From: an uncultured virus (IMG/VR IMGVR_UViG_3300008114_000018)
Taxonomy: Duplodnaviria > Heunggongvirae > Uroviricota > Caudoviricetes
DNA length: 64,000 nucleotides
Reading direction: 5' to 3' (one strand)
IMG/VR virus record: IMGVR_UViG_3300008114_000018
This document shows positions 7,136 to 42,501 of this stretch, in pieces (position 1 is the stretch's first letter; each line of letters begins with the position of its first letter). Below the pieces are notes generated by a model. That model had not been told where the DNA came from. It saw nothing but the letters and a program-made list of their open reading frames with translations, and searched no databases. A program made the translations under genes and the position numbers.

Positions 7136-7144
7136 GAAAATGTA

Positions 7145-27292: not shown

Positions 27293-27565
27293 TTAACCTG
27301 TTCTATGAATGATGTGAAAACCAAACTGAGTTTGCACAGGCTCACTTACTTGTCCTATTTCTAATGCGTAAGTAGCATCTTCAAAGGGCTTAACCATTTG
27401 ACCTTTACCAAACAAACCTAAATCACCACCATTCTGTCCACTAGGACATCTTGAAACTTGTTTTGCCATAGTTGCGAAATCAGCAGCTTGGCTTAGTAGT
27501 TGACTCTTTATCATGTTTGCTTGTTCTAAATTTTCTACTAAAATATGACTTGCACGAACTTGCAT
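27293..27565 (-). CDS. ppiC: Parvulin peptidyl-prolyl isomerase
   Basis: ASHILV...CPSGQNGGDLG.F..GQMVKPFE...TQFGFHII. Confidence 0.92.
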   Translation of the reverse strand: MQVRASHILVENLEQANMIKSQLLSQAADFATMAKQVSRCPSGQNGGDLGLFGKGQMVKPFEDATYALEIGQVSEPVQTQFGFHIIHRTG

Positions 27566-27584
27566 AATTTATCCTTGTATGTTA

Positions 27585-27780
27585 GTGTAAGGCTACTCGC
27601 TCCCACAAGCCCCTTACTGAGTTGTTGCCCTGTCCACTACATTTCTCTTTTGGTAAGGTGTAGTTCCAACCTACGACTTTTCTGGCACCCATGTAAGCGG
27701 GTTCTGAGGCAGATCGTATGCGCCCTGGCTTTCTGGTTTGCCAACCACCCCCATTTCATAACGCAGATGGGACTACGGGA
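27585..27780 (-). ncRNA. Structured ~200-nt ncRNA candidate, copy 1
   Basis: GC-rich multi-hairpin sequence directly 3' of tRNA-Cys; shares a 17-mer and stem order with 37834-38053. Confidence 0.7.
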
Positions 27781-27784
27781 TACT

Positions 27785-27862
27785 TGGAGCAACGGGTGAG
27801 ATTCGAACTCACGGCTTTAGGGTTTTGCAGACCCTTGCATTGGGCCTCTCTGCCACCGTTGC
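27785..27862 (-). tRNA. tRNA-Cys(GCA)
   Basis: Cloverleaf with CCA. Confidence 0.92.
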
Positions 27863-28076
27863 ATTATTTCAATAGTTCAATCAACCTTTGCTTTGATTCT
27901 TCTGTCAAGAATAATTCACACTTTACCTGATCGTGTGGGAACTTTGCAACGTCCCAATGTGTATAGATTCTTAACACTTGAAAATTACTTGGGGTATCAC
28001 AATTCTGTAACTCTGCATATGTTTTAAATCCATCATTCTCATTCAACAAAATTTTCATTGTAATATCCTTATTGTT

Positions 28077-28150
28077 TGGCGTCCCGGCAGGGATTTGAAC
28101 CCCGACCAACGGTTTTGGAGACCGGTATGCTGCCGTTACACTACCGAGAC
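28077..28150 (-). tRNA. tRNA-Trp(CCA)
   Basis: Cloverleaf with CCA. Confidence 0.92.
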
Positions 28151-28158
28151 ATTATACT

Positions 28159-28362
28159 TTACTTGTACTTACTAAGATACTCTTTTGGGTTTATTAAACC
28201 CTGTTCGATTTCATTTAATGCAGTTACTACAGGTTTATCTTTGGTGACTATTTTAGGGGCATGTCCTGAACGTAATTCACGCACCCTAGCACTAGCGATT
28301 AAAACTAAATCATATAAGCCACCTGCTTTTTTTGCTGCTACTTCTGATGTTCTACCTTTCAT
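28159..28362 (-). CDS. rpoZ: RNA polymerase omega subunit homolog
   Basis: YDLVLIASARVREL..GH.P....KDKPVVTALNEIEQG. Confidence 0.85.
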   Translation of the reverse strand: MKGRTSEVAAKKAGGLYDLVLIASARVRELRSGHAPKIVTKDKPVVTALNEIEQGLINPKEYLSKYK

Positions 28363-28381
28363 ATTACTTCCTTATGATGTT

Positions 28382-28456
28382 TGGTAGGGGATAACGGGGT
28401 CGAACCATTGACCTTCGCCTTGTAAGGGCGCTGCTCTACCACTGAGCTAATCCCCT
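28382..28456 (-). tRNA. tRNA-Val(TAC)
   Basis: Cloverleaf with CCA. Confidence 0.93.
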
Positions 28457-28731
28457 AGTATTTTTTATTAGGTACGAAATTCTCTATCGGTTGATAGATA
28501 TTTAAGTGAAGTGATTAAAAATTAATCTGAGACTTTTTCAATTCTTACGGACAAATCTTCTTGGGTCAAGAATTTGCTTGGTAGAGTATTGTTATCTCTT
28601 TCAGCAATGATTCCGTCAGTGACAGACTTAGGATTATATCTTTCCTGACCTGTTAAGTCCATAGACTTGTAAAAAATTTCGTTAATGTAGACATTGATTT
28701 TCATATAACTATTTATCACTTTACATTAAAA

Positions 28732-28814
28732 TGGTGCGCATAGAGGGACTCGAACCCCCACCCGTTGAGACCAGAACCTAAATCTGGCGCGTCTACCAAT
28801 TTCGCCATATGCGC
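28732..28814 (-). tRNA. tRNA-Leu(TAG)
   Basis: Long variable arm, CCA. Confidence 0.93.
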
Positions 28815-28822
28815 ATAATACT

Positions 28823-28906
28823 TGGTGCCCAGAGCCGGACTCGAACCGGCACGCCTTGCAGCGAGGGATTTTAAGTCCCTTGTGTCTACCATTTCACCAC
28901 CTGGGC
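28823..28906 (-). tRNA. tRNA-Leu(TAA)
   Basis: Long variable arm, CCA. Confidence 0.93.
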
Positions 28907-28915
28907 ATTCTAACT

Positions 28916-28990
28916 TGGAGCGGGTGACAGGGATCGAACCTGCGACGAACAGCTTGGAAGGCTGACACTCTACCACTGAGTTACACCCGC
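28916..28990 (-). tRNA. tRNA-Gly(TCC)
   Basis: Cloverleaf with CCA. Confidence 0.95.
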
Positions 28991-28999
28991 ATTACATCT

Positions 29000-29076
29000 T
29001 GGTGCCTCCGAAGGGACTCGAACCCCTAACCAACGGATTATGAGTCCGCTGCTCTGACCGATTGAGCTACAGAGGC
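29000..29076 (-). tRNA. tRNA with CAT anticodon (Ile2 or Met)
   Basis: Cloverleaf; amino-acid identity cannot be settled by eye. Confidence 0.88.
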
Positions 29077-29383
29077 AATTTAATTTGTTTTTAAAGAACG
29101 ATTTCAATATGTGTATTATACTGCTAAAAACTTTATTTGTCAACAGTTAAACAAAATCATCTGACCCAAAATACTCTGCTACTTTTTCTCTTGCTTCTTT
29201 TCTATTCAGTGCAGGAATCTTTACTGTAGCAATATTATTTTTTATTTTGATGTTAAAAGGAACTATACCATTTGGTGTCCAGTTATCTTCAACACGAACC
29301 TTAACAGTAAATTCTTTAAGGTTCATTAATCTTTCAATTACTTGTTGCGTTAAATCTGATGGACTTTGCATAGTTAAGTTAAA

Positions 29384-29458
29384 TGGTGCTGGCAGTAGGA
29401 ATCGAACCCACAACCTACTGATTACAAATCAGTTGCTCTACCGTTGAGCCATGCCAGC
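29384..29458 (-). tRNA. tRNA-Thr(TGT)
   Basis: Cloverleaf with CCA. Confidence 0.93.
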
Positions 29459-29650
29459 GTATTCTGTATTACTTAGTCCTACTTGCAATCGCACGTTGAA
29501 TTTTCATACGATGCTTTGGTCTACATGTTTCAAGCATTTTGGTAAGTTGTTCTACATTAAGTGGACCTAATTTAGTCTTACCTGTTTTTGTTTTCATTGG
29601 ATCACGTTTAAAATCTTTTTTTGCACTCATATATCCTCACATAAAAAACT

Positions 29651-29726
29651 TGGCTCCGGTGGTAGGGCACGATCCTACGACATACGGATTAACAGTCCGC
29701 CGTTCTACCAACTGAACTACACCGGA
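29651..29726 (-). tRNA. tRNA-Asn(GTT)
   Basis: Cloverleaf; atypical T-loop ATCGTGC. Confidence 0.88.
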
Positions 29727-29755
29727 ATTGACTCTATTCTAACAGTTAAAATTCT

Positions 29756-29849
29756 TGGCGAAGAGTATTGGATTCGAACCAATGATCCGGCTTTTGACCA
29801 GATGCCTTCTTAGCAGGAAGGTGCCTTCGACCAACTCGGCCAACTCTCC
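29756..29849 (-). tRNA. tRNA-Ser(GCT)
   Basis: Long variable arm, GCCA end. Confidence 0.92.
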
Positions 29850-30452
29850 TTAAAACTTAATACTTCTCTGTAATCTTTTCTATTCTATCAAAACTTTGTT
29901 TCAATGTCAATTCATATCTAACCTGATTAAGGTTAATTGCATAAATTATATAGACACCATAAACAAACAATGCACCTAATATAGTCCAGCCAATTTGCTC
30001 ACTATCAAGTGTTAGTAAAAAAGCAATTAGCAAAGGAGCAACTGTTGCTAATACAACCATTATTAATGTTCTTTTTAGTGCAATTAATTTTTCATTCATA
30101 ACAATTCCTTATTGTATATCAAACAGGATTTATTGTCAACTGTTTTCTTTGTTGTCATCTTTGTAAAACTTTTCCTGTTTATGTTTCTTTTCTTGCAACG
30201 TTTCTTCACCGAAAAACTTTCGAGGATTACCGCACATATAACACTTTGGATCTCCGCAATTAAAAATCTTTGTTTTGTGGCTACGATGTGGTTGCGTCAT
30301 AAACGGCATTTTGCTCATAGCAGAACTAAGCTTGTGATATCCATAATTCTTAGCTAATTGTAACTGTCTTTTTATCTTTGTTGCTTTTTGATGGAGTCTC
30401 TCACTGTGTCTAATTTTATCTGATTCATCTGACATACACCCTCCTTAACATT

Positions 30453-30543
30453 TGGCGGAAGCGGACGGAGTCGAACCCTCAAGGGCCTATTAAGCCTCAA
30501 CTGTTTTCAAGACAGGTACCATCGCCAATTGGTTTGCGCTTCC
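30453..30543 (-). tRNA. tRNA-Ser(TGA)
   Basis: GGAAGCG/CGCTTCC acceptor, long variable arm; 5' half overlaps the HNH ORF. Confidence 0.88.
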
Positions 30544-30982
30544 TTTTGTTTCTTGATTTATAAGTTGGTAATTGGGAATCACAATTACTACAAACAAATC
30601 TTAAATTTTCTATCCTATTATCATTGTTTATGCCGTTTATGTGATCTAGTATTAATGTCATTGGCTTACCTTGCCACATTGGTTCTATACCACAAATACC
30701 ACAAACATAATCAATTAATTTTTTTGCTTTTATCCTTGCTTTAACACTATGTCTAGAATAACTAGAATTTTCACAAAACACAACATCATCTGGGTATTTT
30801 TGATCGTAATGTTCGGGTCTGCCTGTTTTTAATCCTAAGTTCCATGGTTTAGCACCTTTTTTTCTACCTGCATTTGGTGAATGAAAATGCTTTATTTTGT
30901 TAGGATTATTAACACACGACATTTCATGTGCTTTTAGTGAACCTTTGTTTTTAATTTCTCTTTGACAATATGTGCAATTCAT
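30497..30982 (-). mobile_element. Free-standing HNH homing endonuclease
   Basis: CGIC...LILDHINGINNDNRIENLRFVCSNCDS; N-terminal CxxC-H zinc finger. Confidence 0.85.
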
Positions 30983-31040
30983 AATAGTATCCTCTACTAT
31001 TATTTATGCTTTAACGCAAAAAATCGTCAAATAGCTGCGT

Positions 31041-31280
31041 TTAGCCATTCTTCCTTTTTATTATCATTGCTACATATGTTCCTGTAAATGCACCTAATAA
31101 TGCAGGTATCAACATCAAATTATCGTTAACAAAGCTTATTAGAGCTATACTATATATTAACATAACGATTGATGCAAGTGTACTGGCAACCAAAGGCTTA
31201 TCTTCGGCAATAGCTTTTATATAATAGGTATTCACTATATCGGTAAAAAATACAGCAAAAAATGTGATGATATATGACAT
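31041..31280 (-). CDS. Small membrane protein
   Basis: Three hydrophobic segments; LGAFTGTY. Confidence 0.65.
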   Translation of the reverse strand: MSYIITFFAVFFTDIVNTYYIKAIAEDKPLVASTLASIVMLIYSIALISFVNDNLMLIPALLGAFTGTYVAMIIKRKNG

Positions 31281-31356
31281 TGGGTTAGTCCTGCAGGAAT
31301 CGAACCTGCATCATTGCAATCGGAATGCAGTATCTTATCCATTAGACGAAGGACTA
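31281..31356 (-). tRNA. tRNA-Arg(CCG), slightly atypical 3' end
   Basis: TAGTCCT/AGGACTA acceptor followed by ACCCA; TTCGATT T-loop. Confidence 0.8.
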
Positions 31357-31360
31357 AAAT

Positions 31361-31434
31361 TGGAGCGGGTAGCGAGAATCGAACTCGCAAATAATCCTTG
31401 GCAAGGATTCAGGTTACCTTTACATCATACCCGC
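31361..31434 (-). tRNA. tRNA-Gly(GCC)
   Basis: Cloverleaf with CCA. Confidence 0.92.
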
Positions 31435-31442
31435 TTGAAACC

Positions 31443-33353
31443 TTAATTAGTTTCTTTTACTTCTGCGTCTACTACATTAGGATCACCTTCTGCTTTTTGT
31501 GCGTTTGGATCACCTTCTGGCATTTCTTTATTGCGCTTTTCTGCTTCATATGTAATAGTTTTGCGATATAGTTCACCGAGTTCTTCAGTGGCTTTGTCCA
31601 TATCTTCTTTACTATCACCTTTAGCAACTTCTTTGTATTTACTAATACTATCAAGCATTGAAGTTTTTTCTTCTTCAGGAATATAGCCTTCAAGATTTTC
31701 AATTTGCTTTTCAAGCATACCAATTTGATTATCCAAACTGTTACGTGCTTGTACAAGTTCTACAACCTTTTTATCTTCCTCAGCATTTAACTCAGCGTCT
31801 TTGACCATTTGTTCAATTTCTTGTTCAGATAATCCAGAACTTGCTTTGATAGTAATTTGCTTTTCTTTGTTAGTTTTCTTGTCAAGAGCCTTAACTGATA
31901 GTATACCATTTGCGTCAATGTCAAATGTTACTTCAATCTGTGGCATGCCTCTTGGTGCAGGATCAATGCCCTCTAGTGTAAACTCACCTAGTCCTTTGTT
32001 ACCTACAACAATTTCACGTTCACCTTGGAAAACTTTAATTGTAACAGCAGGCTGATTATCGTCTGCTGTACTAAAAGTTTGGCTTGCCTTTGTAGGAATC
32101 GTTGTATTCTTTTTGATAAGTTTAGTCATAACACCACCTAGTGTTTCAATACCTAAACTTAAAGGTGTAACATCCAACAACAGAACATCAGTGCGATCAC
32201 CACCTAAGACTTGACCTTGAAGTGCAGCACCAACTGCAACTGCTTCATCAGGGTTTACATCTTTACGAGGTGCCTTACCAAAAAACTTTTCTACTGCTTC
32301 TTGTACTCTTGGCATGCGAGTCATACCACCAACAAGAATCACTTCATCAATATCACTGATACTTACACCAGCGTCTTTGATTGCAACTTCACAAGGCTTA
32401 ATGCTACGTTGAATTAACTCTTCAACCAAACCTTCTAATTTAGCACGTGTGATTTTAACGTTAAGATGCTTTGGTCCTGTTGCATCAGCAGTGATATAAG
32501 GTAAGCTTACATCAGTCTGTGTTGAACTTGATAGTTCAATCTTAGCACGTTCTGCTGCATCTTTAAGTCTTTGTAATGCTAATACATCTTTAGTTAAATC
32601 TACACCACTTTCTTTTTTGAACTCATCAACTAGATGATCCATAATTCTTTGGTCAAAATCTTCACCACCTAAAAATGTATCACCGTTAGTTGATAATACT
32701 TCAAATTGTTTTTCACCTTCGACATTAGCAATATCAATAATACTAATGTCAAATGTTCCACCACCTAAGTCATAGACAGCAATTTTTCGGTCCTTCTTGT
32801 CCTGTTTGTCTACACCGTAAGCTAATGCTGCCGCTGTAGGTTCGTTAATAATACGCAATACTTCCAGACCCGCAATGCGTCCTGCGTCTTTAGTTGCTTG
32901 TCTTTGACTATCATTAAAATATGCTGGAACTGTAATAACAGCCTTTGTGACTTCTTCACCTAAGAAATCTTCTGCTGTCTTTTTCATTTTACGCAAAACT
33001 TCAGCACTGATTTGTGGAGGTGCTAGTTTCTTGTCATTCACTTCTACCCAAGCATCACCGTTATCTGCTTCTACAATCTTATATGGCATTAGATCGATAT
33101 CTTTTTGGACTGCTTGTTCTTTGAATTTGCGCCCAATCAATCTCTTTGATGCATACACCGTGTTCTTTGGATTAGTAACAGCTTGACGCTTAGCTGGCGC
33201 GCCAACAACGATTTCACCGTCCTGCATGTAGGCGATAATGCTTGGGGTAGTTCTTGCACCCTCGCTGTTCTCTAATACTTTTGGATTTTTGCCATCTATG
33301 ATAGCAACGCATGAATTGGTAGTACCTAGGTCAATACCTATAATCTTTGACAT
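31443..33353 (-). CDS. dnaK: Hsp70 chaperone DnaK
   Basis: [32 protein letters not shown]; full length. Confidence 0.98.
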
Positions 33354-33408
33354 GTTATTTCTCCTTTAATAAGCAAGATTACTTCAGTGCCCGATAGGCG
33401 CAACTGAG
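33354..33408 (-). promoter_or_regulatory. ROSE-like RNA thermometer in the dnaK leader
   Basis: UCUUGCUU pairs with AAGGAGA (the SD) around a bulged G; upstream hairpin CAGTTGC...GCACTG. Confidence 0.6.
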
Positions 33409-33451
33409 ATATGTATTTATACATTATTTTTACTAAAAATACAAATATATT

Positions 33452-33526
33452 TGGTAGCAGGAGAGGGATTCGAACCCCCGATAGCTTCCGTATGAAGGAA
33501 GTGCATTACCTCTTTGCTATCCTGCC
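33452..33526 (-). tRNA. tRNA-Met(CAT), elongator-like
   Basis: Cloverleaf; TTCATAC anticodon loop. Confidence 0.88.
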
Positions 33527-33774
33527 ATATACTTTCGTACATTTATTTGTTACAAGTAACAAATATATAACTTTATATGGAAATAGAATTTATTTCATTA
33601 TACAAACTCGGAGTAGGATGCATCCTAGTGAGGTATGAAGATATTATAACAATGGAGTACACTCCACTAGGATATACTCGTATTGAATTTGGGTACGGCG
33701 AACATCTTATTGTTGAAGAAGATATAATTTGTATAATGAAAAAAATTCAAGCAGCTAAAACGCTAAGTGAATAA

Positions 33775-33850
33775 TGGTGCCGCCTGTTGGTTACGCTCCA
33801 ACCTATCCGGCTCTTCAAACCGGCGCTTTCACTAGATTAGCTTAAGCGGC
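33775..33850 (-). tRNA. tRNA-Phe(GAA)
   Basis: All stems form; atypical T-loop AGCGTAA and D-loop. Confidence 0.8.
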
Positions 33851-33852
33851 AT

Positions 33853-33929
33853 TGGGGTGAAGGACGGGACTCGAACCCGCAACCACTGGATCCACAATCC
33901 AGGGCTCTACCAATTGAGCTACCAACACC
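33853..33929 (-). tRNA. tRNA-His(GTG)
   Basis: G-1 with C73; two U.U pairs in the acceptor stem. Confidence 0.9.
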
Positions 33930-34136
33930 ATTGATTATGTTGCACGCCATTCTACACGACCATACTGGTCTATATGTGCAATACTTTGCATACGTTTGAC
34001 TTCAACATATTCACGTTTCTCAGTAATAATTTCACCACCACGTTGTACTAATTCATTTACTTTAATCTTTGCTACAGAATTAATAGGTTCAAATTTTTTA
34101 AACTTGATCTCCATTTTACACCTCCGATTTATAAAT

Positions 34137-34238
34137 ATGTAGTGTAGCGGTTAATCTAGCACACAAGGATGCCAACGTAAAGAGTTTTCTAGATTTCCTC
34201 TATACCTAGTCGAAGGCCAAATTGTCGCTACACTACAT
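34137..34238 (-). ncRNA. ~100-nt element closed by a 13-bp terminal stem
   Basis: ATGTAGTGTAGCG/CGCTACACTACAT perfect inverted repeat; internal AATCTAG/CTAGATT helix. Confidence 0.55.
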
Positions 34239-34811
34239 CACAGGTCCATTACCATTTTTAAAACCAACAGTACCGCCTTCTTCTACAATACGTTTGATAA
34301 CTTCTTCAAACAATATAGGGCGATAATCTGTTTGTTCTACACAAACACAATGATATCTTGGGTCGATTTTATATTCACCGAAAATTTCTGCTTTAACTCT
34401 CTGATAATGCAGATGTCCATGAATATTAGTACCGAACCTTGCGAGACTATCTGTATGAATAGGAATATGACTTAATATCATTCCATTCATTACATGATAG
34501 CCACGAATATCTCTAAAGTATTCAGTGTATTCTTCTAATCTAAAAATGTCGTGGTTACCCTTAATAAGAACCTTATCTCCATTAAGCCTTGCTAGAGTTT
34601 TAAGTGCTTTACGATTAATCACAACATCACCGAGATGGTAAACTTTATCGTTTGGACGAACGGTTTCGTTCCAACGTTTTACCATTTCTTCATCCATCTC
34701 ATCTGGGTCATCCCAGGGTCTGAGTTTAGTTCCATCATCACGAAGGAACTTACAAACGCCAGCATGACCAAAATGCGTATCAGAAACCAAAAAGTTTGCT
34801 GGCATAGTCAC
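34233..34811 (-). CDS. Calcineurin-like metallophosphoesterase
   Basis: SDTH, GDVV, GNHD, SHIP, HGHLH motifs. Confidence 0.92.
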   Translation of the reverse strand: MTMPANFLVSDTHFGHAGVCKFLRDDGTKLRPWDDPDEMDEEMVKRWNETVRPNDKVYHLGDVVINRKALKTLARLNGDKVLIKGNHDIFRLEEYTEYFRDIRGYHVMNGMILSHIPIHTDSLARFGTNIHGHLHYQRVKAEIFGEYKIDPRYHCVCVEQTDYRPILFEEVIKRIVEEGGTVGFKNGNGPVM

Positions 34812-34856
34812 TCCTTAAATAAAAAAATTATAACACAAAAACAATTTACTGTCAAT

Positions 34857-34933
34857 TGGCACCCCAGGAAGGATTCGAACCTCCGACTCCTGCGTTCGTA
34901 GCACAGTACTCTAGTCCACTGAGTTACTGGGGC
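34857..34933 (-). tRNA. tRNA-Arg(ACG)
   Basis: Cloverleaf with CCA. Confidence 0.92.
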
Positions 34934-34942
34934 ATATATTGA

Positions 34943-35018
34943 TGGTGGGGGCTATGGGAATCGAACCCATTTAATCTACTATGTCATAGTAGCGACTAGC
35001 CATTCATACCTAGCCCCT
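34943..35018 (-). tRNA. Atypical tRNA-like RNA with GAC (Val) at the anticodon position
   Basis: Good T-arm and ACCA end, but A1.C72 mismatch, no proper D-stem and an anticodon arm able to pair down to a 3-nt loop. Confidence 0.6.
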
Positions 35019-35092
35019 CGCCGACCCGGGGTTTCCCTCCTTGCAGTCGGTGAAGTATTTATTGCCCAACACCATTAAAAATAAATACAAAA

Positions 35093-35794
35093 ATGCATAT
35101 ACATATATTTGGTCACAGCATTTGTGCCAGAGCAGGTTGGAAACATGACAAACCCGAACCTGATCTATTTGTTGATAGATTAATTAAAAAATATAATATA
35201 CCTAAATCAAACTATCACGCTGTTAATCAAGGCAGTGAAGAAAGAATATTATATTTTTTAAAAAAAGTTAAAAAGATTGACTTGGCGATAATCTTCCATG
35301 GCACTCCGCAACATTTCTTTTGTCCTGCGTGGTCTAGTGATTTTCATTTAGTAGACCAAGACAAATATTGGGAAAATGATTACCCCAGAGATTTGTATTA
35401 CATGCCTGAAATACTAAAAGATAAACCAAAAGAACCTAATCCTGATATAATATTAGATAAGAAAAATTATCAAAAATCATATGAAAATTTTGTAAAACAC
35501 TTTTATACACCTGAATTAAATCGCAATAGACACTATGGCGCATTAATTCAAATTGATCAATATTTAAATCACAAAAAAATACATGCAATTCATTGTGTAC
35601 TAAAAAACACATTACCAACTTGGTTCGAGTTTAGTAATGGTATAGTAGACAATGAACTTGCAGAGTTGCAAAAACAAAACAGTAAGTTCTATACCGGACC
35701 TCAAAACAGCGGCAATTTAATCAGTGAAGAAGGTAATATCTACATTGCTAACAAACTTACTGATTACATAGAACAATTAACTGGCTGGGGATGA
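35093..35794 (+). CDS. SGNH-like hypothetical protein inserted antisense in the tRNA array
   Basis: IHIFGHS N-terminus and C-terminal EEGN..IA; ATAAATA just upstream. Confidence 0.6.
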   Translation: MHIHIFGHSICARAGWKHDKPEPDLFVDRLIKKYNIPKSNYHAVNQGSEERILYFLKKVKKIDLAIIFHGTPQHFFCPAWSSDFHLVDQDKYWENDYPRDLYYMPEILKDKPKEPNPDIILDKKNYQKSYENFVKHFYTPELNRNRHYGALIQIDQYLNHKKIHAIHCVLKNTLPTWFEFSNGIVDNELAELQKQNSKFYTGPQNSGNLISEEGNIYIANKLTDYIEQLTGWG

Positions 35795-35857
35795 TGGACT
35801 CGAACCACCGAATGTCGGAATCAAAATCCGATGCCTTACCAACTTGGCGAATCCCCA
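35782..35857 (-). tRNA. tRNA-Gln(TTG)
   Basis: Cloverleaf with CCA. Confidence 0.93.
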
Positions 35858-36078
35858 ATTAACTTGGTATTACTTTTGGTATATACGGTACATTTCTAGG
35901 ACCATGTCTTTGCTCAAATAACATACGTGCTTCCTGTAAATCTTTAGCATAGACACGATCTTTAATATCACCTTGCGGTGTTCTTACTGTAGTTTCATAC
36001 ATTGGCATAACAAACTCCTTAGAGGTAAGAAAAGGTAGCTAAGCTACCCTTTTCATTATGTTGATTGAAAATCACTGA

Positions 36079-36150
36079 TTAGCGATTTGCAATGTACATA
36101 GTGATTTCAAAACCAAAACGCATATCAGTTGCACTAGGTGTTGTCCACAT
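36079..36150 (-). CDS. pqqA: PQQ precursor peptide (absent from the track)
   Basis: MWTTPSATDMRFGFEITMYIANR with ExxxY core; GGAG SD upstream; terminator-like hairpin at ~36030-36054. Confidence 0.92.
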   Translation of the reverse strand: MWTTPSATDMRFGFEITMYIANR

Positions 36151-36358
36151 GTTACTCTCCTTTGAATTTAAAATACATGTACTGCACATGTATTTAAGAG
36201 ATTGTACAACACAAAAATGGTACTGTCTATACGCATAGTATTGAACGATAGCTAGTGAAAATCATTAAACTTACCATATAGAAACACATTCCTGGATTGT
36301 CGTAAAACCCTCCATAGCCCCGAGCGCCATTATTTTTATATTCGAATGTGTTTTTATA

Positions 36359-36434
36359 TGGTAGGGGCACAGAGATTCGAACTCTGGACACACGGATTAA
36401 AAGTCCGCTGCTCTACCTACTGAGCTATACCCCC
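36359..36434 (-). tRNA. tRNA-Lys(TTT)
   Basis: Cloverleaf with CCA. Confidence 0.93.
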
Positions 36435-36729
36435 ATCATCTTTCGAGGTTTGTCGCTTTCCTTATTCATCTTTATCACCTTTATTTCTCATGCTTCTTGT
36501 TTTAGCACTTCTTTCTGAGGATTTGACTGCCTCACGAATGAAATGTCTTTCACGTTCCTTATTAAAACTAAGGATCGCAATAGCCTTTTCTGCTTTCTTT
36601 ATTTTTACTGCCTTTGGATCGTAACCCATATTAATCTCCTATTTAAAATTTCTATCAATTAATGCTAACAACCAAATAACTCCGATAATAACTGCCATTG
36701 CCCCATTGTAGTTCTCCTTATAGTTATAT

Positions 36730-36813
36730 TGGTGGGGTGTACTGGGATCGAACCAGTCATGTCAAAGACGGCGGATTTACAGTCCACTGCATCACCATTG
36801 ATGCTTCCACCCC
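36730..36813 (-). tRNA. tRNA-Tyr(GTA)
   Basis: Long variable arm, CCA. Confidence 0.92.
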
Positions 36814-36819
36814 ATTTAA

Positions 36820-37021
36820 TGCTCTGACAGACCTCGGAGGTAATTATACCGCATCAAGCACCGAGTAGTCTCAGTACCATCACACACGGCCTCCACCCTC
36901 TCCACGACAGGTCCCGTTCTCGCATTGCCAGCGCACTTTCGGTTTAAAGTGTACCACCCGTAGTTGTCATACTACTTCTCATCGTGCGGGTCACACTATC
37001 TGCTGACTAAGCAGAACGTTC
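36820..37021 (-). ncRNA. Structured ~200-nt ncRNA candidate between tRNA-Asp and tRNA-Tyr
   Basis: GC-rich, no plausible ORF, several hairpins. Confidence 0.6.
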
Positions 37022-37098
37022 TGGCGACACCAAGGGGGTTCGAACCCCTGACCTCCGCCGTGACAGGGCGGCATTCTAACCAGCTGAACTATGGTGCC
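37022..37098 (-). tRNA. tRNA-Asp(GTC)
   Basis: Cloverleaf with CCA. Confidence 0.95.
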
Positions 37099-37249
37099 AT
37101 TGTTCTACACTCTGCTACTAACTTACTTTTTACAATTGTTAATCTTTTATTCCAAACATACTCTGCATCTCTACATTCTTTTTCTGTGGCATACTTTGAG
37201 TATTGGGTATAGTTGTCAGGAAACTGTAACCAAAATACTAAAATCCAAG

Positions 37250-37714
37250 TCATCTCACACCCAAATAATGTTTGTTTACATAGCTTTGTATTGCTTGATG
37301 ACTTACATTACTGATATGCACGCCTGGAGCAACATTACGCCTACCTGAACTATCAAAGTAATTTCTTGTTTCTATACCATAGACACCATAGTTAACCTGT
37401 GCTGTATGATATGCACCAATTGTAACAATAGAGTAGGGCTTATGTTTTACGTTTTTTAAAACATGTTTAATGCTTTCTGCACCCTTACTATACCCATATA
37501 ACTGATACTGTTTATTATTTCTATTAATAAACTTTACTGCTAAATGTGCTTGATTCCAACTATATGTCATTGCACATGCATTCTGCTTTTTTGCATATTG
37601 ATTAAAGGCACGACTATCAAATAAATCATTGATACCTTTGAAACCAATAACGAACTTGTCACAGGCAAAACTGTTCTGTGTTACAAGTAATAAAATAAAA
37701 AATAATGTTCTCAT
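37250..37714 (-). CDS. Secreted alpha/beta-hydrolase-like protein
   Basis: Signal peptide; LYGYSKGA (GxSxG) nucleophile elbow. Confidence 0.6.
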   Translation of the reverse strand: MRTLFFILLLVTQNSFACDKFVIGFKGINDLFDSRAFNQYAKKQNACAMTYSWNQAHLAVKFINRNNKQYQLYGYSKGAESIKHVLKNVKHKPYSIVTIGAYHTAQVNYGVYGIETRNYFDSSGRRNVAPGVHISNVSHQAIQSYVNKHYLGVR

Positions 37715-37833
37715 ATTAGTTTTGTAGCCTATACTATATGCCTAACTCAACAGCTTTACACGTGTTTACTGTTTATTGTTTCGGTTACATAACGCCTGCG
37801 CCAGCCTCTGTGCTTACAGGCTACAAAATTAAT

Positions 37834-38053
37834 ATGCTTAGGCCACGCTTTTCCACGGTCGCCCCCAAGCTGGAGTTGTTGCCCTGTCCGAACACTAAAG
37901 GACCTTTGCCGCGTAGTGTCCACGCTGCTATGTTGTCTGAAACACCGGAGACACCACATCGAAATGCAGAGTCTATGTTTCGCTAAAGGTGCCATAGCCA
38001 CCTGGACTTTATCGTATTACCAAACGCTACTTTCAGGAAAGTAGTAACCGGAA
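37834..38053 (-). ncRNA. Structured ~220-nt ncRNA candidate, copy 2
   Basis: Shares a 17-mer and stem order with 27585-27780. Confidence 0.7.
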
Positions 38054-38303
38054 TCTTGCTTCTTTGATTCGGCGAGCTGTCCTACTTCAAGCAGGCTCAC
38101 ACTGGTCGCCCTGAGGTGAAGCACCTCAGTTACTCTAGATTAATATTAATGCTAACAAGGACAGGCCTATTACATGATACCGAAGGCATTACTGTATCAA
38201 ACCCTTGCTAAACTCTTTTCAGAGACAGAACGCACATTTTCTGTTTTGTTTTTAATCTTCATTTGCCGCTAGTATAACAGCAAATCGATTTATTGTCAAA
38301 CTT

Positions 38304-38380
38304 TGGTGCCTGCTCTTGGAATCGAACCAAGCACCCCCGCGTTATCAACACGGTGCTCTAACCGAATGAGCTAAGCAGGC
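38304..38380 (-). tRNA. tRNA-Ile(GAT)
   Basis: Cloverleaf with CCA. Confidence 0.93.
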
Positions 38381-38729: not shown

Positions 38730-39635
38730 TCAAGCCTGAAGAATTGTATATTTGTCAATTTTCATTTTATCAATTTGTTCCAATATTTTTGTTGCTAAAA
38801 TTGCATTAGTTTCAGCGGTTAAGTGTATTGGACTTACTCCCCAACGGTGTCGAGGATCCATATAAACAAATTGATCGTCAAGTTCTACTACTGGTAAATC
38901 GCTTCCATGCTTTCTTTTAAAATGCTGAACCATAACATCTAACCAACGTAATACATAAGGTCCATTTTTAGGATCATTCATGAATCTGTAGTTGTGATAG
39001 AATGGTATGTTTTCTTTTAGATTTATTGTGTACGGAACAATTTTTTGCTTGCTAATGTAACACTTTGATGCTAGTTTTGTTTTGACTAAAATAATTCTGT
39101 CCTGAAACAGTTGTTTCATCTGTACAGCAAAATCAACTAACAACTCCTTTGTTCTACCCATTACTTCTTCGGTATCAAAATCAAAATAACATTGTGTTTT
39201 ACTAATAATATCTTTGTTTACCCAATCCACATCTAACAATTTGTGAAACTGGGGAACCAAACTAAAACATTCATTTTTAGTAATAAACCTTGTGTAAAGT
39301 TCATTGCTAAAATTGATCACCATAATGTCTGTAGAAACTACATTTTCTTTTAGAAATTTATAGTAAGGAAATTTTGTTAATTCAACATAAGCCTGATCAT
39401 ACAAAAAACTTTCATGAGGATGCTCAGGGTATTGCTCTTTCATATAGGTAAACATACGCTCAGCCATACTACTAGGCTGAGCGTACAGTGACATTAAACT
39501 TGTACCATGTGGAGGATACTTGTTTATTAAAACATTCCCACCTGCTAGGTCATATCTTCTAATTACACTTGGACTATGTAATGAATCCCATAAATCACAT
39601 GCACCAAAGTGAAAAATTCTAGGTCTTAAAATCAT
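38730..39635 (-). CDS. Hypothetical protein, possibly SGNH-like
   Basis: FHFGACD N-terminus; DPRHRWGVSPIH C-terminus. Confidence 0.55.
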   Translation of the reverse strand: MILRPRIFHFGACDLWDSLHSPSVIRRYDLAGGNVLINKYPPHGTSLMSLYAQPSSMAERMFTYMKEQYPEHPHESFLYDQAYVELTKFPYYKFLKENVVSTDIMVINFSNELYTRFITKNECFSLVPQFHKLLDVDWVNKDIISKTQCYFDFDTEEVMGRTKELLVDFAVQMKQLFQDRIILVKTKLASKCYISKQKIVPYTINLKENIPFYHNYRFMNDPKNGPYVLRWLDVMVQHFKRKHGSDLPVVELDDQFVYMDPRHRWGVSPIHLTAETNAILATKILEQIDKMKIDKYTILQA

Positions 39636-40189
39636 GTAAGAATTCTACTATGTTTCGGAACCCCGCTTAATAAGTATTCCATTTGATCCGCAAGAATGTT
39701 TCTATTTTGCAAAATCATACTTTCAAAGTGATTAGGTTCATAAGGCACATAAAGTAGTTCCATTCTTGCTTCTTTAAGTGTCTTATTATCTTTTTTGTTA
39801 TTACACGAAACACATGCAGTAACAACATTCATCCATGTATTTACTCCACCTCTACTTTTGGGTAGGATGTGATCTCGGCTTAAATGATTACTGTTAGAGA
39901 AATGCCCTCCGCAGTATGCACATACATGACGGTCACGTCCAAACAATGTTTTGTTTGTCAATGCAACTTTGCCGTGTTTAGCCGGATCGAACCCATGTCC
40001 TTTGATTGCAATGATACTAGGAGTTTCAATGTAACTCAAACGTCCGTCATTCTGAATTCCACCATGAAACTTTGCAACAACTTCACCTAGCGACCATGCA
40101 ACCATATCTTTTGCAAAATATGTGATTGCATTTTCGTGCGAAATCCATTGTCTAGGGATTCCGCCGATGTCCAACGCTAGTACCGACAT
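39632..40189 (-). CDS. HNH endonuclease (McrA/HNH_5 type)
   Basis: RD.HVCAYCG...SRDHILPKSRGG..W.NVVTAC..CN..K. Confidence 0.9.
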   Translation of the reverse strand: MSVLALDIGGIPRQWISHENAITYFAKDMVAWSLGEVVAKFHGGIQNDGRLSYIETPSIIAIKGHGFDPAKHGKVALTNKTLFGRDRHVCAYCGGHFSNSNHLSRDHILPKSRGGVNTWMNVVTACVSCNNKKDNKTLKEARMELLYVPYEPNHFESMILQNRNILADQMEYLLSGVPKHSRILT

Positions 40190-41590: not shown

Positions 41591-42109
41591 TTAATTACTC
41601 AATAACCTTGCTACAGAGGTCATAACCGCTGCTATTCGCCCTATATCTCGTAATTGTTCTACTGTATATCCTTCTTTTTTAAGTGTTTCATAATGTGCCT
41701 TAACACAAAAATGACACTTACCTACTATACTTGCTGCAAGACTATATGCCTCAAATCTTGCTTTGGTTGTACCACCATGCGTTGCAATCGCATTCATACG
41801 CAACTGTGCTGGCAAACCTTTTAATTGTTCATCATCTGCCATTTCAACATATGGATACCATACATTGTTTTGTGCCATAATACTAGCTGCTGTTAGTGCT
41901 GCATCAGCCTCTTTACGATCACTTAATTGGCTGTGAACCCATGTCCAAAATTTTGAATTGCCAGTTGCAAATGCTGCTGCAAGTGCCACTGCCTCTGCTT
42001 CTTCAACTGGTAACGTACTACGTTTAATTACTGCATCTATGTTTAGTTTTGTATCCTTAGCGTATTCAGGAATACTTTGTTCTTTTAATGCGTCTACCCA
42101 TGCTGTCAT
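41591..42109 (-). CDS. ahpD: Alkyl hydroperoxide reductase AhpD
   Basis: IPEYAKDTKLN...CHFCVKAH (CxxC...H). Confidence 0.92.
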   Translation of the reverse strand: MTAWVDALKEQSIPEYAKDTKLNIDAVIKRSTLPVEEAEAVALAAAFATGNSKFWTWVHSQLSDRKEADAALTAASIMAQNNVWYPYVEMADDEQLKGLPAQLRMNAIATHGGTTKARFEAYSLAASIVGKCHFCVKAHYETLKKEGYTVEQLRDIGRIAAVMTSVARLLSN

Positions 42110-42501
42110 TTTGTTAAAACTCCTAGTTGTCTATATCCTTTATATGTAGGATGGACCTTATCGGGAGATAGTTCAGGAATAATAATAAAAGTATCACCAA
42201 AATGTCTAGCAATTTTTTTAACCAACTCTTGTTTCTCTGGTTTAATTGCAGGTACTATCCAAAATACTTGATCTGAATTAACATGAGTTCTTAATGCGAC
42301 CAATTCTATTTCAGTGTTTAAGTTTTTAAAATCATTACTCCCTAAACTAATAATTGTAGTTTTGGCAGGCTTGATTTTTTTAACATATGCATCATTCCAG
42401 TCTTTGCTATTGATACCACTCTGAGCATAAGCCACGCACTCAGTACGTACTTGGCTTATACCCTTTGCTATGCTATCTCCTAAGATAAGGCACTCTATCA
42501 T
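42106..42501 (-). CDS. SGNH/GDSL hydrolase
   Basis: GDSI, GSND and DKVHP blocks. Confidence 0.85.
   Translation of the reverse strand: MIECLILGDSIAKGISQVRTECVAYAQSGINSKDWNDAYVKKIKPAKTTIISLGSNDFKNLNTEIELVALRTHVNSDQVFWIVPAIKPEKQELVKKIARHFGDTFIIIPELSPDKVHPTYKGYRQLGVLTK

What the first reader, a model, noticed from the sequence alone, without database searches (positions are those of the whole stretch)
27585..38053. Two diverged copies of a ~200-nt structured RNA inside the tRNA array
Seen: 27585-27780 and 37834-38053 share the exact 17-mer GAGTTGTTGCCCTGTCC (27619-27635 and 37873-37889; RNA GGACAGGGCAACAACUC). They also share the same order of parts on the - strand: 5' UCCCG/UUCCG, a hairpin, UUGG(C/U)AA...AAAG(U)CCAGG, a variable domain, a hairpin, the 17-mer and a 3' hairpin. 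Stems differ in sequence but keep pairing (GUAAGG/CCUUAC versus GCUUGGG/CCUAAGC). The 5' end complements the 3' hairpin loop with a compensatory change (UCCCG:UGGGA versus UUCCG:UGGAA), suggesting a long-range pseudoknot, although GGGA could instead be a GNRA tetraloop. Inference: a paralogous ncRNA family with an invariant core, possibly a ribozyme, a protein decoy or a ligand binder. I cannot assign it to a named family.
Basis: partly seen in the sequence, partly recalled or inferred. Interest (0 to 1): 0.8.

Follow-up and report, generated by a model that had tools for sequence, protein, structure and literature searches.

The report
Knotted RNA family among phage tRNAs
Two related non-coding RNA genes of about 200 bases sit among this uncultured freshwater phage's tRNA genes; they belong to an uncatalogued, heavily pseudoknotted RNA family with an almost invariant 17-base core, and its job is unknown.

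Summary
Copy 1 (window 27585-27783, minus strand, 199 nt) and copy 2 (37834-38056, minus strand, 223 nt) share the exact 17-mer GGACAGGGCAACAACUC. They are diverged paralogues of one RNA family. I collected 33 distinct members from viral and metagenome contigs, plus 3 divergent second copies, falling into four subtypes (A, B, C, D). Copy 1 is type A and copy 2 is type B. The A+B pair recurs in 5 contig lineages.

Shared architecture:
- The first four bases pair with the apical loop of the 3' hairpin (129 of 132 cells canonical; four different complementary combinations).
- Several H-type pseudoknots follow.
- The single-stranded 17-mer comes next.
- The 3' hairpin carries an invariant GG/URG internal loop.

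Covariation is strong in every alignment: 87-97% of cells paired against 27-52% in slid controls. Rfam 15, phage GenBank records, T4 rnaC/rnaD and 156 proteobacterial genomes gave no match. All 25 loci scanned have tRNAs on the same strand, and 18 lie inside arrays of 8 or more. RNA-library contigs match both copies exactly.

Function is unknown. My best guess is a nuclease-resistant RNA cut out of the tRNA precursor, whose invariant core binds a conserved partner.

The parts
27585..27783 (-). Copy 1, type A RNA, 199 nt. It starts 2 nt after tRNA-Cys (27785-27862). The ppiC start codon follows about 20 nt after its end.
   Evidence: Boundaries from the type A alignment of 10 members. tRNA. PpiC domain. 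R1 model match at 27585-27647, 69.4 bits.
27777..27780 (-). Copy 1, 5' strand UCCC of the long-range pseudoknot (PKa). It pairs with GGGA at 27601-27604.
   Evidence: (helix 1: 97.5% paired, 2 of 4 pairs covary).
27750..27776 (-). Copy 1, pseudoknot PK1: S1 GUAG/CUGC (27773-27776 with 27763-27766) and S2 CCCAU/AUGGG (27767-27771 with 27750-27754).
   Evidence: helices 2 and 3.
27725..27749 (-). Copy 1, pseudoknot PK2: S1 GGU/ACC (27747-27749 with 27735-27737) and S2 UUGGC/GCCAG (27740-27744 with 27725-27729).
   Evidence: helices 4 and 5; 3 pairs in each change on both sides.
27687..27724 (-). Copy 1, hairpins P5 (GGC/GCC, 27722-27724 with 27708-27710) and P6 (ACCC/GGGU, 27699-27702 with 27687-27690).
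   Evidence: helices 6 and 7.
27636..27672 (-). Copy 1, pseudoknot PK3: S1 AGGU/ACCU (27669-27672 with 27656-27659) and S2 ACUAC/GUAGU (27660-27664 with 27636-27640). Its 3' strand abuts the 17-mer.
   Evidence: helices 8 and 9. The MAFFT register is imperfect here: 68-77% of cells paired.
27619..27635 (-). Copy 1, invariant 17-mer GGACAGGGCAACAACUC. It is predicted to be single-stranded or held in tertiary contacts.
   Evidence: invariant in 32 of 33 members; 1 member has A3G. One search found no consistent internal partner.
27587..27617 (-). Copy 1, 3' hairpin P7. Outer stem GUAAGG/CCUUAC (27612-27617 with 27587-27592). Internal loop GG (27610-27611) against UAG (27593-27595). Inner stem CUUGU/GCGAG (27605-27609 with 27596-27600). 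Loop GGGA (27601-27604).
   Evidence: (helices 10 and 11: 96-97% paired).
37834..38056 (-). Copy 2, type B RNA, 223 nt. It lies downstream of tRNA-Ile (38304-38380) and a promoter-like site, and upstream of a 154-aa ORF and tRNA-Asp.
   Evidence: Boundaries from the type B/C alignment of 15 members. R1 match at 37835-37901, 62.4 bits. tRNAs.
38048..38053 (-). Copy 2, 5' strand UUCCGG of PKa. UUCC pairs with GGAA (37851-37854) and GG pairs with CC (37857-37858).
   Evidence: helix 1: 95.6% paired, nearly invariant within type B/C; covaries between types.
38013..38044 (-). Copy 2, hairpins P1 CUACUUU/AAAGUAG (38038-38044 with 38027-38033) and P2 CGU/ACG (38024-38026 with 38013-38015).
   Evidence: helices 2 and 3.
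37927..38002 (-). Copy 2, pseudoknot PK2: S1 GGUG/CACC (37999-38002 with 37988-37991) and S2 GCUAUG/CAUAGC (37993-37998 with 37927-37932). It encloses the variable hairpin P3 GAAACA/UGUUUC (37976-37981 with 37939-37944), which is reduced to a short hairpin (31 alignment columns shorter) in the short members.
   Evidence: helix 5: 96.7% paired, 4 of 6 pairs change on both sides; helix 6. Searches show the length difference.
37890..37925 (-). Copy 2, pseudoknot PK3: S1 GCG/CGC (37923-37925 with 37911-37913) and S2 GGACACUA/UAGUGUUC (37914-37921 with 37890-37897). Its 3' strand abuts the 17-mer.
   Evidence: helices 7 and 8. All 8 positions pair in 8 of the 11 type B members (the outer positions fail in the other 3). 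Type C uses another register.
37873..37889 (-). Copy 2, invariant 17-mer GGACAGGGCAACAACUC.
37836..37870 (-). Copy 2, 3' hairpin P7. Outer stem GCUUGGG/CCUAAGC (37864-37870 with 37836-37842). Internal loop GG (37862-37863) against UGG (37843-37845). Inner stem CG/CG (37860-37861 with 37846-37847). The apical loop holds the PKa partner.
   Evidence: (helices 10 and 11).
38271..38299 (-). Promoter-like site TTGACA-17-TATACT with an upstream TG. It lies about 208 nt upstream of copy 2 and is a possible start of the precursor that carries copy 2.
   Evidence: 11 of 12 consensus matches. RNA-library contigs cross the 5' boundary of copy 2 (records 8 and 23). A consensus match only, not shown to be active.

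Best explanation
Both stretches are genes for members of an uncatalogued family of compact phage non-coding RNAs, 190-225 nt long and rich in pseudoknots. Copy 1 is type A and copy 2 is type B.

Shown here:
- The family exists. There are 33 distinct sequences plus 3 divergent second copies.
- Its fold is conserved through compensatory changes.
- It lies on the tRNA strand in phage tRNA arrays.
- Types A and B co-occur in 5 contig lineages.

Inferred, step 1: the RNA is transcribed with the tRNAs, or from its own promoter placed just upstream. Host tRNA-processing nucleases then free it. 3' trimming of the upstream tRNA sets its 5' end, and RNase P cleavage of the downstream tRNA, where there is one, sets its 3' end.

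Inferred, step 2: the 5' end is tucked into the loop of the 3' hairpin and the 3' end lies in a stem. Both ends are therefore hidden from end-dependent nucleases, and the RNA accumulates as a stable species.

Inferred, step 3 (weakest): the nearly invariant single-stranded 17-mer, together with the invariant GG/URG internal loop of the 3' hairpin, is the working surface. It binds a highly conserved partner in trans, most plausibly a component of the host or phage tRNA/translation machinery, either as an RNP subunit or as a decoy. The fast-evolving pseudoknot scaffold only presents this surface.

My odds:
- Real structured RNA family: about 0.97.
- Released from tRNA precursors as a stable RNA: about 0.7.
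- Core is a binding platform for a trans partner rather than a catalyst, a ligand pocket or an assembly interface: about 0.4.
For: Family:
- The exact 17-mer finds 27 viral contig loci, and all 27 carry the homologous 3' hairpin.
- 17 more loci came from metagenome contigs.
- Together these give 33 non-redundant sequences.

Fold:
- Type A: 86.7% of cells paired against 36-48% when partners are slid; 27 of 49 pairs change on both sides against 4-12.
- Type B/C: 87.4% against 36-44%; 15 of 51 against 2-11.
- Type D: 97.0% against 33-52%; 12 of 37 against 0-3.
- Shared 3' module over all 33: 87.9% against 27-44%.
- In all four counts, 0 of 500 shuffles reached the observed covariation score.

End-locking pseudoknot: 129 of 132 cells are canonical over 33 members. 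The combinations are UUCC:GGAA (13), UCCC:GGGA (12), CCUC:GAGG (3) and CCCC:GGGG (2).

Context:
- In 25 of 25 loci scanned the tRNAs lie on the RNA's strand, and 18 of 25 hold 8-26 tRNAs within 8 kb.
- In the members that directly follow a tRNA (most type A, half of type D), the RNA starts 1-5 nt after its encoded CCA. Several members are followed within about 10-15 nt by the next tRNA.
- Members without an upstream tRNA have a consensus promoter that puts the start within 0-15 nt of the 5' strand (L232, L006, L011; read by eye).

Expression hint: contigs from RNA libraries match with no differences inside copy 1 (27616-27768, run X16) and inside copy 2 (37843-38016, run X18). A further one has 1 difference (37903-38118, run X15).

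Core: the 17-mer has no consistent internal pairing partner in any type. It varies at only 5 positions over 36 copies.

Not coding: no reading frame through the 17-mer is open with a start codon across members.
Against: - No transcript ends were seen. The RNA-library data are assembled contigs, which cannot show ends, strand or level, and such libraries can hold DNA. Two of these contigs cross the 5' boundary of copy 2, so at least a longer precursor exists.
- Single-sequence folding energies are no better than shuffles: z +0.38 for copy 1 and -0.41 for copy 2. This is expected for a pseudoknotted RNA, but it gives no support.
- No partner protein was found. The only neighbour shared widely, a phrog_547 phosphoesterase, is in 8 of 16 loci and is a common phage gene.
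- Type C members sit about 2 kb from only 1-3 tRNAs, so processing with tRNAs cannot be universal.
- The MAFFT alignments put some helices out of register, so per-helix figures for PK3 and P5 are low (68-78%).
- The structures were drawn by me from these same sequences, which favours the observed values over the slid controls.
Confidence: 0.45

Rival explanations
1. Self-assembling RNA-only particle. The 5' strand of one molecule pairs with the 3' hairpin loop of the next (head to tail), or other loops kiss. The RNA would then work as a homo-oligomer, as ROOL and GOLLD do.
For: Covariation cannot tell pairing within one molecule from pairing between identical molecules. In phages that hold both A and B, each type's 5' strand matches its own loop and not the other's: UCCC:GGGA against UUCC:GGAA in the window, and CCUC:GAGG against UUCC:GGAA in L256/L255. 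ROOL and GOLLD are phage RNAs often near tRNA islands, and they form nanocages (passages of PMC12286853).
Against: The RNA is 3-4 times smaller than ROOL or GOLLD. A 4-bp contact is weak for assembly. Nothing here tests oligomerisation.
Confidence: 0.12
2. Ribozyme. The invariant 17-mer and the GG/URG loop form an active site. It either cleaves the RNA itself at its 5' edge, which would free the upstream tRNA's 3' end, or it acts on tRNA precursors.
For: A core kept invariant inside a scaffold that changes freely is typical of ribozymes. Most type A and half of the type D members start 1-5 nt after a tRNA CCA. A metallophosphoesterase, which could in principle remove cyclic phosphates, sits in 8 of 16 loci; its role is my speculation.
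Against: No Rfam ribozyme family matches at E<=10. Members with their own promoter, or far from tRNAs, need no 5' cleavage (L232, L006, L011, type C). No conserved cleavage-site context was identified.
Confidence: 0.1
3. Base-pairing regulator. The exposed 17-mer pairs with a conserved host or phage RNA.
For: The 17-mer appears unpaired within the RNA, and it is conserved far beyond what structure alone needs.
Against: The window holds no enriched complementary site. Complementary 9-mers number 3 against 4.4 expected, 8-mers 16 against 19.5, and there is none of 10 or more. The one 8-nt match, to the anticodon arm of tRNA-Asp, is at chance level and lies largely in a stem.
Confidence: 0.08
4. 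Cis-acting leader or riboswitch that controls the gene downstream (ppiC after copy 1, the 154-aa ORF after copy 2).
For: Several type A members are followed about 10-25 nt later by a ribosome-binding site and a start codon (copy 1, L004, L008, L026, L277). Invariant cores are typical of aptamers.
Against: The downstream element is not consistent. It is a tRNA in L003, L009, L015, L017, L027 and L334b, a promoter in L011, L213 and L253, and unrelated ORFs elsewhere. No alternative expression-platform pairing was seen.
Confidence: 0.05
5. Extremely reduced copy of a housekeeping RNA (RNase P RNA or tmRNA) captured from the host, like the phage's rpoZ, dnaK and ppiC genes.
For: The array is interspersed with host-like housekeeping genes: RpoZ at 28159-28362, DnaK and PpiC. 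Type A has stretches that resemble, from my memory of the E. coli sequence, the RNase P CR-I and CR-V strands. tmRNA is also rich in pseudoknots.
Against: No RNase P or tmRNA model of Rfam matches either copy at E<=10 or 14 other members at E<=1. ARAGORN calls no tmRNA in the window or in 25 loci. The RNase P-like letters occur in type A only, where they take part in other helices that covary (PK2 S2 and P5). There is no T-arm or CCA end. Possible tag frames are inconsistent. No true match to the 3' module model was found in the 156 proteobacterial genomes searched.
Confidence: 0.03
6. Small protein-coding genes rather than RNA genes.
For: Short ORFs overlap both copies (27582-27692, 36 aa; 37756-38001, 81 aa). 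BLASTP grouped ORFs that overlap type B RNAs in 7 loci.
Against: The frame that is open through the invariant 17-mer differs between members, and many have no start codon in it. Substitutions keep base pairs, not residues. The length difference in P3 spans 31 alignment columns, which is not a multiple of three.
Confidence: 0.01

Closest known systems
Phage T4 small stable RNAs, species 1 (rnaC, 139 nt) and species 2 (rnaD, 119 nt)
   Same: They are stable RNAs of unknown function encoded in a phage tRNA gene cluster, directly beside tRNA genes on the same strand (record annotation). From general knowledge, they are presumably freed by tRNA processing.
   Different: There is no sequence or module similarity. 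The 3' module model scores at most 4.6 bits on the T4 region, and blastn of both copies against 50,697 phage records finds nothing. Read by eye, the T4 RNAs are shorter and rnaC ends in a tRNA-like T-arm. The present family has no T-arm, several pseudoknots and a 5'-end:3'-loop lock.
GOLLD and ROOL RNAs (Rfam families; cryo-EM nanocages, PMC12286853)
   Same: They are phage or prophage RNAs, often near tRNA islands, with multiple pseudoknots and unknown function. [quoted passage not shown] That parallels the invariant 3' module and variable body seen here.
   Different: Neither family matches in Rfam, at gathering scores or at E<=10. The size here is 190-225 nt; GOLLD members often exceed 800 nt, and ROOL is about 500-600 nt by my recollection. 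No oligomer evidence exists for this family.
tmRNA (SsrA)
   Same: Sometimes carried by large phages that also carry many tRNA genes (from general knowledge), rich in H-type pseudoknots, with the two ends brought together.
   Different: There is no tRNA-like domain, no CCA end and no consistent tag reading frame. Neither ARAGORN nor Rfam calls one.
Other uncatalogued pseudoknotted RNAs of phage tRNA arrays noted earlier in this scan (e1-5403650, e1-5408741, e1-5785797)
   Same: These earlier AI notes describe RNAs of about 190-220 nt with several pseudoknots in tRNA arrays of uncultured phages. They share short words with copy 2 (87 of 87, 8 of 87 and 7 of 87), so they are the same family or close kin.
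   Different: They are unpublished machine notes, not independent evidence. I did not see their sequences or alignments.

Membership tests
   Both copies match model R1 over its full length: 69.4 and 62.4 bits, E about 1e-18 and 1e-16. Alignment A5.
   Copy 1 UCCC:GGGA and copy 2 UUCC:GGAA. Family-wide, 129 of 132 cells are canonical.
   Copy 1 ACUAC/GUAGU and copy 2 GGACACUA/UAGUGUUC. The register varies between subtypes.
tRNA (RF00005) | Cloverleaf recognised by ARAGORN or the Rfam tRNA model | tested here: not met
   There is no call at 27585-27783 or 37834-38056. Searches at E<=10 gave no tRNA match inside either copy.
tmRNA | tRNA-like domain with a T-arm and CCA end | tested here: not met
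   No ARAGORN tmRNA in the window or in 25 loci. No Rfam match. The 3' ends read ...ACAC or ...GCAA.
tmRNA | Conserved tag reading frame with a resume codon and an in-frame stop | tested here: not met
   Frames through the 17-mer give stops and lengths that differ between members.
Bacterial/archaeal RNase P RNA | P4 helix formed by the conserved CR-I and CR-V strands; match to the Rfam RNase P models | tested here: not met
   No RNase P model matches at E<=10 or at E<=1 in 14 other members. The CR-I/CR-V-like letters (a resemblance recalled from memory) occur in type A only and are used in other helices that covary.
Bacterial/archaeal RNase P RNA | Cleavage of pre-tRNA 5' leaders | not testable with these tools
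   Needs a biochemical assay.
GOLLD / ROOL | Match to the Rfam covariance models | tested here: not met
   no match.
GOLLD / ROOL | Phage-borne and near tRNA genes | tested here: met
GOLLD / ROOL | Homo-oligomeric nanocage | not testable with these tools
   Needs native gels or cryo-EM.
T4 species 1 / species 2 RNAs | Sequence or module homology | tested here: not met
   R1 scored with filters off on the T4 region 69800-71800: best 4.6 bits. blastn found no match.
T4 species 1 / species 2 RNAs | Stable RNA encoded within a phage tRNA cluster | tested here: inconclusive
   The location is met. Stability and discrete ends are not shown; only RNA-library contigs exist.
Riboswitch / cis-regulatory leader | A constant position upstream of a regulated gene, with an expression platform | tested here: not met
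   The downstream neighbour is a tRNA, a promoter or an unrelated ORF, depending on the member.

The most novel reading that the evidence does not exclude
The family is a phage-encoded RNA machine that acts on tRNAs. Its invariant 17-mer and GG/URG loop would form an active or recognition site. That site would either process the phage's own dense tRNA precursors, or capture a host tRNA-directed enzyme such as an anticodon nuclease or a maturation factor. Types A and B would be two non-redundant subunits or specificities that phages keep together.
Probability: 0.15. Interest if true: 0.9.

Novelty: new variant of a known kind. Interest (0 to 1): 0.72.

Why it matters
Large phages carry tRNA arrays whose biology is only partly understood. 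The few other RNAs known to live in them (T4 species 1 and 2, GOLLD, ROOL) still have no function.

This family adds a compact and strongly supported class:
- a lock between the 5' end and the 3' hairpin loop;
- at least three pseudoknots;
- a 17-base core that stays fixed while the scaffold turns over;
- two paralogues kept together in several phage lineages.

That pattern points to a specific molecular job tied to a highly conserved partner. At about 200 nt the RNA is small enough for probing, crystallography or cryo-EM, pull-downs and ribozyme assays. It could therefore make the open question of what non-tRNA RNAs in phage tRNA arrays do directly testable.

Tried and rejected
Database searches that found nothing:
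- Rfam at gathering scores over the whole window gave only tRNAs.
- Rfam at E<=10 on both copies gave one chance match, Prion_pknot at 14.9 bits and E 2.4, and otherwise nothing.
- Rfam at E<=1 on 14 other members gave only matches outside the RNA bodies: tRNA genes, chance matches on their opposite strand, and two weak chance matches in flanking DNA.
- blastn 'distant' of both copies against phage GenBank records gave no match. The window's own record may be hidden there.

Pattern scans:
- A degenerate viral scan gave 59 loci, of which 29 are true (27 already known plus L043 and L080). The other 30 are chance hits that read as protein-coding sequence.
- In genome contigs, 0 of 120 rows are true members. 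Most of those I read are coding stretches with a G-Q-G-N-N-S-like motif.
- Absence from bacterial genomes is therefore not shown by that scan.

Model R1 on whole genomes: 0 of 5 genomes matched. Of 151 further genomes, 1 had a hit of 25.1 bits, which is a GC-rich stretch that reads as coding. The family was not found in the genomes searched, which is not proof of absence.

Other negatives:
- Single-sequence folding z-scores are not significant.
- A search for antisense targets of the 17-mer in the window stayed at chance level.
- A search for an internal partner of the 17-mer found none that is consistent.
- A 6-nt complementarity between the type A P5 loop (CAUACG) and type B P2 (CGUAUG) was dropped. 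It is mismatched in the window's own pair, absent in L334, and within chance for two 200-nt RNAs.
- The tmRNA tag idea was dropped after reading all three frames.

Reads: stretches of the window without RNA-contig cover are not interpreted.

Literature:
- Three full-text searches found no paper describing this RNA (I saw listings and abstracts only).
- Fremin et al. 2023 (PMC10690425; I read passages) predicted 8,495 candidate RNAs from IMG/VR and may include it.
- Six contig numbers gave 0 hits in that paper's searchable supplements, but three files could not be searched. Prior listing there cannot be excluded.

Full report
**Setting.** The window looks like part of a large uncultured phage.
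- ARAGORN finds 24 tRNA genes, all on the minus strand, between 27131 and 38695. Rfam adds three weaker tRNA matches and nothing else.
- Host-like housekeeping genes are interspersed: a PpiC-type rotamase (27293-27565), RpoZ (28159-28362) and DnaK (31443-33353). There are also HNH endonucleases.
- The DnaK is 65-71% identical to proteobacterial DnaK sequences present in 'phage' records.
- A 432-aa ORF of unknown function (2864-4162) has no relative in 50,697 phage records.

**The observation.**
- The 17-mer GGACAGGGCAACAACTC occurs twice, at 27619-27635 and 37873-37889 on the minus strand. There is no third site even with 3 mismatches (0.09 expected).
- Read as RNA, copy 1 begins 2 nt after tRNA-Cys and ends about 20 nt before the ppiC start codon.
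- Copy 2 lies between tRNA-Ile and a 154-aa ORF.

**A family, not a coincidence.**
- An exact scan of 2.9 million viral contigs for the 17-mer gave 27 loci. In all 27 the 17-mer is followed by the same kind of hairpin (GGGC...GURGC), with stems that differ in sequence but still pair.
- A looser pattern added one further true member, found as two loci. Its remaining 30 of 59 loci were chance hits that read as protein-coding sequence.
- A metagenome scan added 17 true loci among 118 rows.
- A scan of bacterial and archaeal genomes gave 0 true members among 120 rows.
- After removing duplicates there are 33 distinct sequences of 190-225 nt.
- They fall into four subtypes:
  - A: 10 sequences, including copy 1.
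  - B: 11 sequences, including copy 2.
  - C: 4 sequences.
  - D: 8 sequences.

**Architecture.** All subtypes share these parts, in order:
1. Four bases at the 5' end that pair with the apical loop of the 3' hairpin.
2. A 5' pseudoknot. In types B and C this is a hairpin that looks like a degenerate form of it.
3. A variable middle with further pseudoknots and hairpins.
4. A pseudoknot whose 3' strand abuts the 17-mer.
5. The 17-mer.
6. A 3' hairpin made of an outer stem, an invariant internal loop (GG opposite U-R-G), an inner stem and the loop.

The helices of both window copies were checked base by base.

**Covariation.** I drew the structures, with crossing helices, on MAFFT alignments and counted pairs.

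| Alignment | Members | Cells paired | Slid controls | Pairs changed on both sides | Slid controls |
|---|---|---|---|---|---|
| Type A | 10 | 86.7% | 36-48% | 27 of 49 | 4-12 |
| Type B/C | 15 | 87.4% | 36-44% | 15 of 51 | 2-11 |
| Type D | 8 | 97.0% | 33-52% | 12 of 37 | 0-3 |
| Shared 3' module | 33 | 87.9% | 27-44% | 6 of 8 | 1-4 |

- In all four counts, 0 of 500 column shuffles reached the observed covariation score.
- The end-locking pseudoknot is canonical in 129 of 132 cells. It appears as UUCC:GGAA (13), UCCC:GGGA (12), CCUC:GAGG (3) and CCCC:GGGG (2). The remaining 3 members carry one mismatch.
- Caveat 1: I derived the structures from these same sequences.
- Caveat 2: MAFFT misplaces some helices (PK3 and P5 score 68-78%).
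- Caveat 3: the sequences are related to one another.
- Single-sequence minimum-free-energy folding gives no support (z +0.38 and -0.41). That is unsurprising for a fold dominated by crossing helices.

**Not a known family.**
- Rfam 15 has no match to either copy at E<=10, apart from one chance match at 14.9 bits. It has no match to the RNA bodies of 14 other members at E<=1.
- Phage GenBank records give no blastn match.
- A covariance model of the shared 3' module (R1) scores at most 4.6 bits on the T4 region that holds rnaC and rnaD.
- R1 finds no true match in 156 proteobacterial genomes. Its one hit, at 25.1 bits, is a GC-rich stretch that reads as coding.
- ARAGORN calls no tmRNA in the window or in 25 loci.
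- Type A has letters that, from memory, resemble the RNase P CR-I and CR-V strands. They are absent from the other types and are used in other helices that covary, so I give this no weight.
- No reading frame through the 17-mer is conserved, so the stretches are not small protein genes or tmRNA tags.
- Three literature searches found no description. A bulk catalogue of IMG/VR candidate RNAs (PMC10690425) could include it; its searchable supplements did not list six of the contigs, but three files could not be searched.

**Context.**
- With 8-kb flanks, all 25 loci scanned have tRNAs on the RNA's strand. Of these, 18 hold 8-26 tRNAs. The type C loci and one type B locus (L335) have only 1-3 tRNAs within 8 kb.
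- In the members that directly follow a tRNA (most type A, half of type D), the RNA starts 1-5 nt after its encoded CCA. The identity of that tRNA varies: Cys, Met, Thr, Asp, His, Trp, Asn, Gly.
- Several members are followed within about 10-15 nt by another tRNA.
- Members without an upstream tRNA have consensus promoters that would start transcription 0-15 nt before the 5' strand (L232, L006, L011; read by eye).
- Near copy 1 no promoter-like or terminator-like site is found.
- About 208 nt upstream of copy 2 there is a strong promoter-like site.

**Two paralogues per phage.**
- R1 found three further, more divergent copies, each with one or two changes in the 17-mer.
- Types A and B therefore occur together in 5 contig lineages: the window, L255/L256, L345, L332 and L334. 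In 4 of the 5, B lies upstream of A.
- Gene order around them is shared between the window and L340/L328.
- Each type's 5' strand matches its own loop and not the other's.

**Expression.**
- Of 24 runs listed, 6 are RNA libraries holding 6-9% of the sampled words.
- I laid four of them. They contain contigs identical to 27616-27768 (inside copy 1) and to 37843-38016 (inside copy 2). One contig with a single difference spans 37903-38118 and crosses the 5' boundary of copy 2.
- Contigs cannot show ends, strand or level, and DNA can contaminate such libraries. This is only a hint of transcription.

**Interpretation.**
- What is shown: a real, conserved, multiply pseudoknotted RNA family of phage tRNA arrays, with an almost invariant and apparently unpaired 17-mer and an invariant internal loop.
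- What I infer: release by tRNA-processing nucleases, stability from hidden ends, and a core that binds a conserved partner.
- The window contains no enriched antisense target, and no consistent protein neighbour was found. A phrog_547 phosphoesterase is in 8 of 16 loci.
- The rivals cannot be separated with these tools. They are an RNA-only homo-oligomer in the manner of ROOL and GOLLD, a ribozyme, a base-pairing regulator, a cis leader, and a reduced housekeeping RNA.

**Earlier notes of this scan.** Other windows were reported to hold the same or closely related RNAs. One note (e1-5403650) describes the stretch upstream of a copy-2 twin as separate small folded cassettes. That fits the hairpins and promoter I see at 38057-38299 and the lack of conservation of that leader in other lineages. 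I did not test it further.

Noticed in passing
window 38057-38299 (minus strand): Between a strong promoter-like site (38299-38271) and copy 2 lies a leader of about 208 nt with several hairpins, for example CUGAGGUG-CUU-CACCUCAG at about 38111-38129. It is not conserved upstream of type B copies in other lineages. RNA-library contigs run from it into copy 2.
   Followed up: partly
window 33778-33850, 30456-30543, 34946-35018 (minus strand): Rfam's tRNA model matches three further stretches (43.2, 31.9 and 29.7 bits) that ARAGORN does not call. They may be extra or degenerate tRNA genes in the array.
   Followed up: no
window 28159-28362, 27293-27565, 31443-33353 (minus strand): Host-like housekeeping genes are embedded among the tRNAs: the RNA polymerase omega subunit (Rpb6/RpoZ domain), a PpiC-type prolyl isomerase and a full-length DnaK.
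   Followed up: partly
window 6584-7474, 41591-43034, 44700-53682, 59047-59430: A rich set of auxiliary genes: Fe/Mn superoxide dismutase, an IscA-like Fe-S assembly protein, NifU, AhpC/TSA peroxiredoxin, a CMD-family protein and six radical SAM proteins, two of them with SPASM domains.
   Followed up: no
window 34233-34811 (minus strand); L327 9225-9788; L331 1970-2572 and others: A metallophosphoesterase of about 190 aa (phrog_547; weak similarity to PdeM) sits inside the tRNA arrays of 8 of the 16 RNA-bearing loci compared.
   Followed up: partly
window 38733-38705 and 38523-38495 (minus strand): Two more near-consensus sigma-70-type promoter-like sites (11 of 12 matches each) lie inside the tRNA array. 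This suggests several transcription units rather than one long precursor.
   Followed up: no
L005 181-251 (= L329 about 2553-2623): A tRNA directly upstream of a type D member is missed by ARAGORN but scores 29.8 bits with Rfam. By eye its anticodon loop reads GUU (Asn), and Asn is missing from ARAGORN's list for that array.
   Followed up: partly
Genome-contig loci L087-L206, e.g. L095, L186, L098: The core letters CAGGGCAACAACTC recur in many bacterial coding regions, where they encode a G-Q-G-N-N-S-like motif. Short-pattern scans for this RNA are therefore swamped by coding hits.
   Followed up: partly
window 20447-20761, 30497-30982, 39632-40189 (minus strand): GIY-YIG and HNH endonuclease genes lie in and beside the array. 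They are probably homing endonucleases that may shuffle its cassettes.
   Followed up: no
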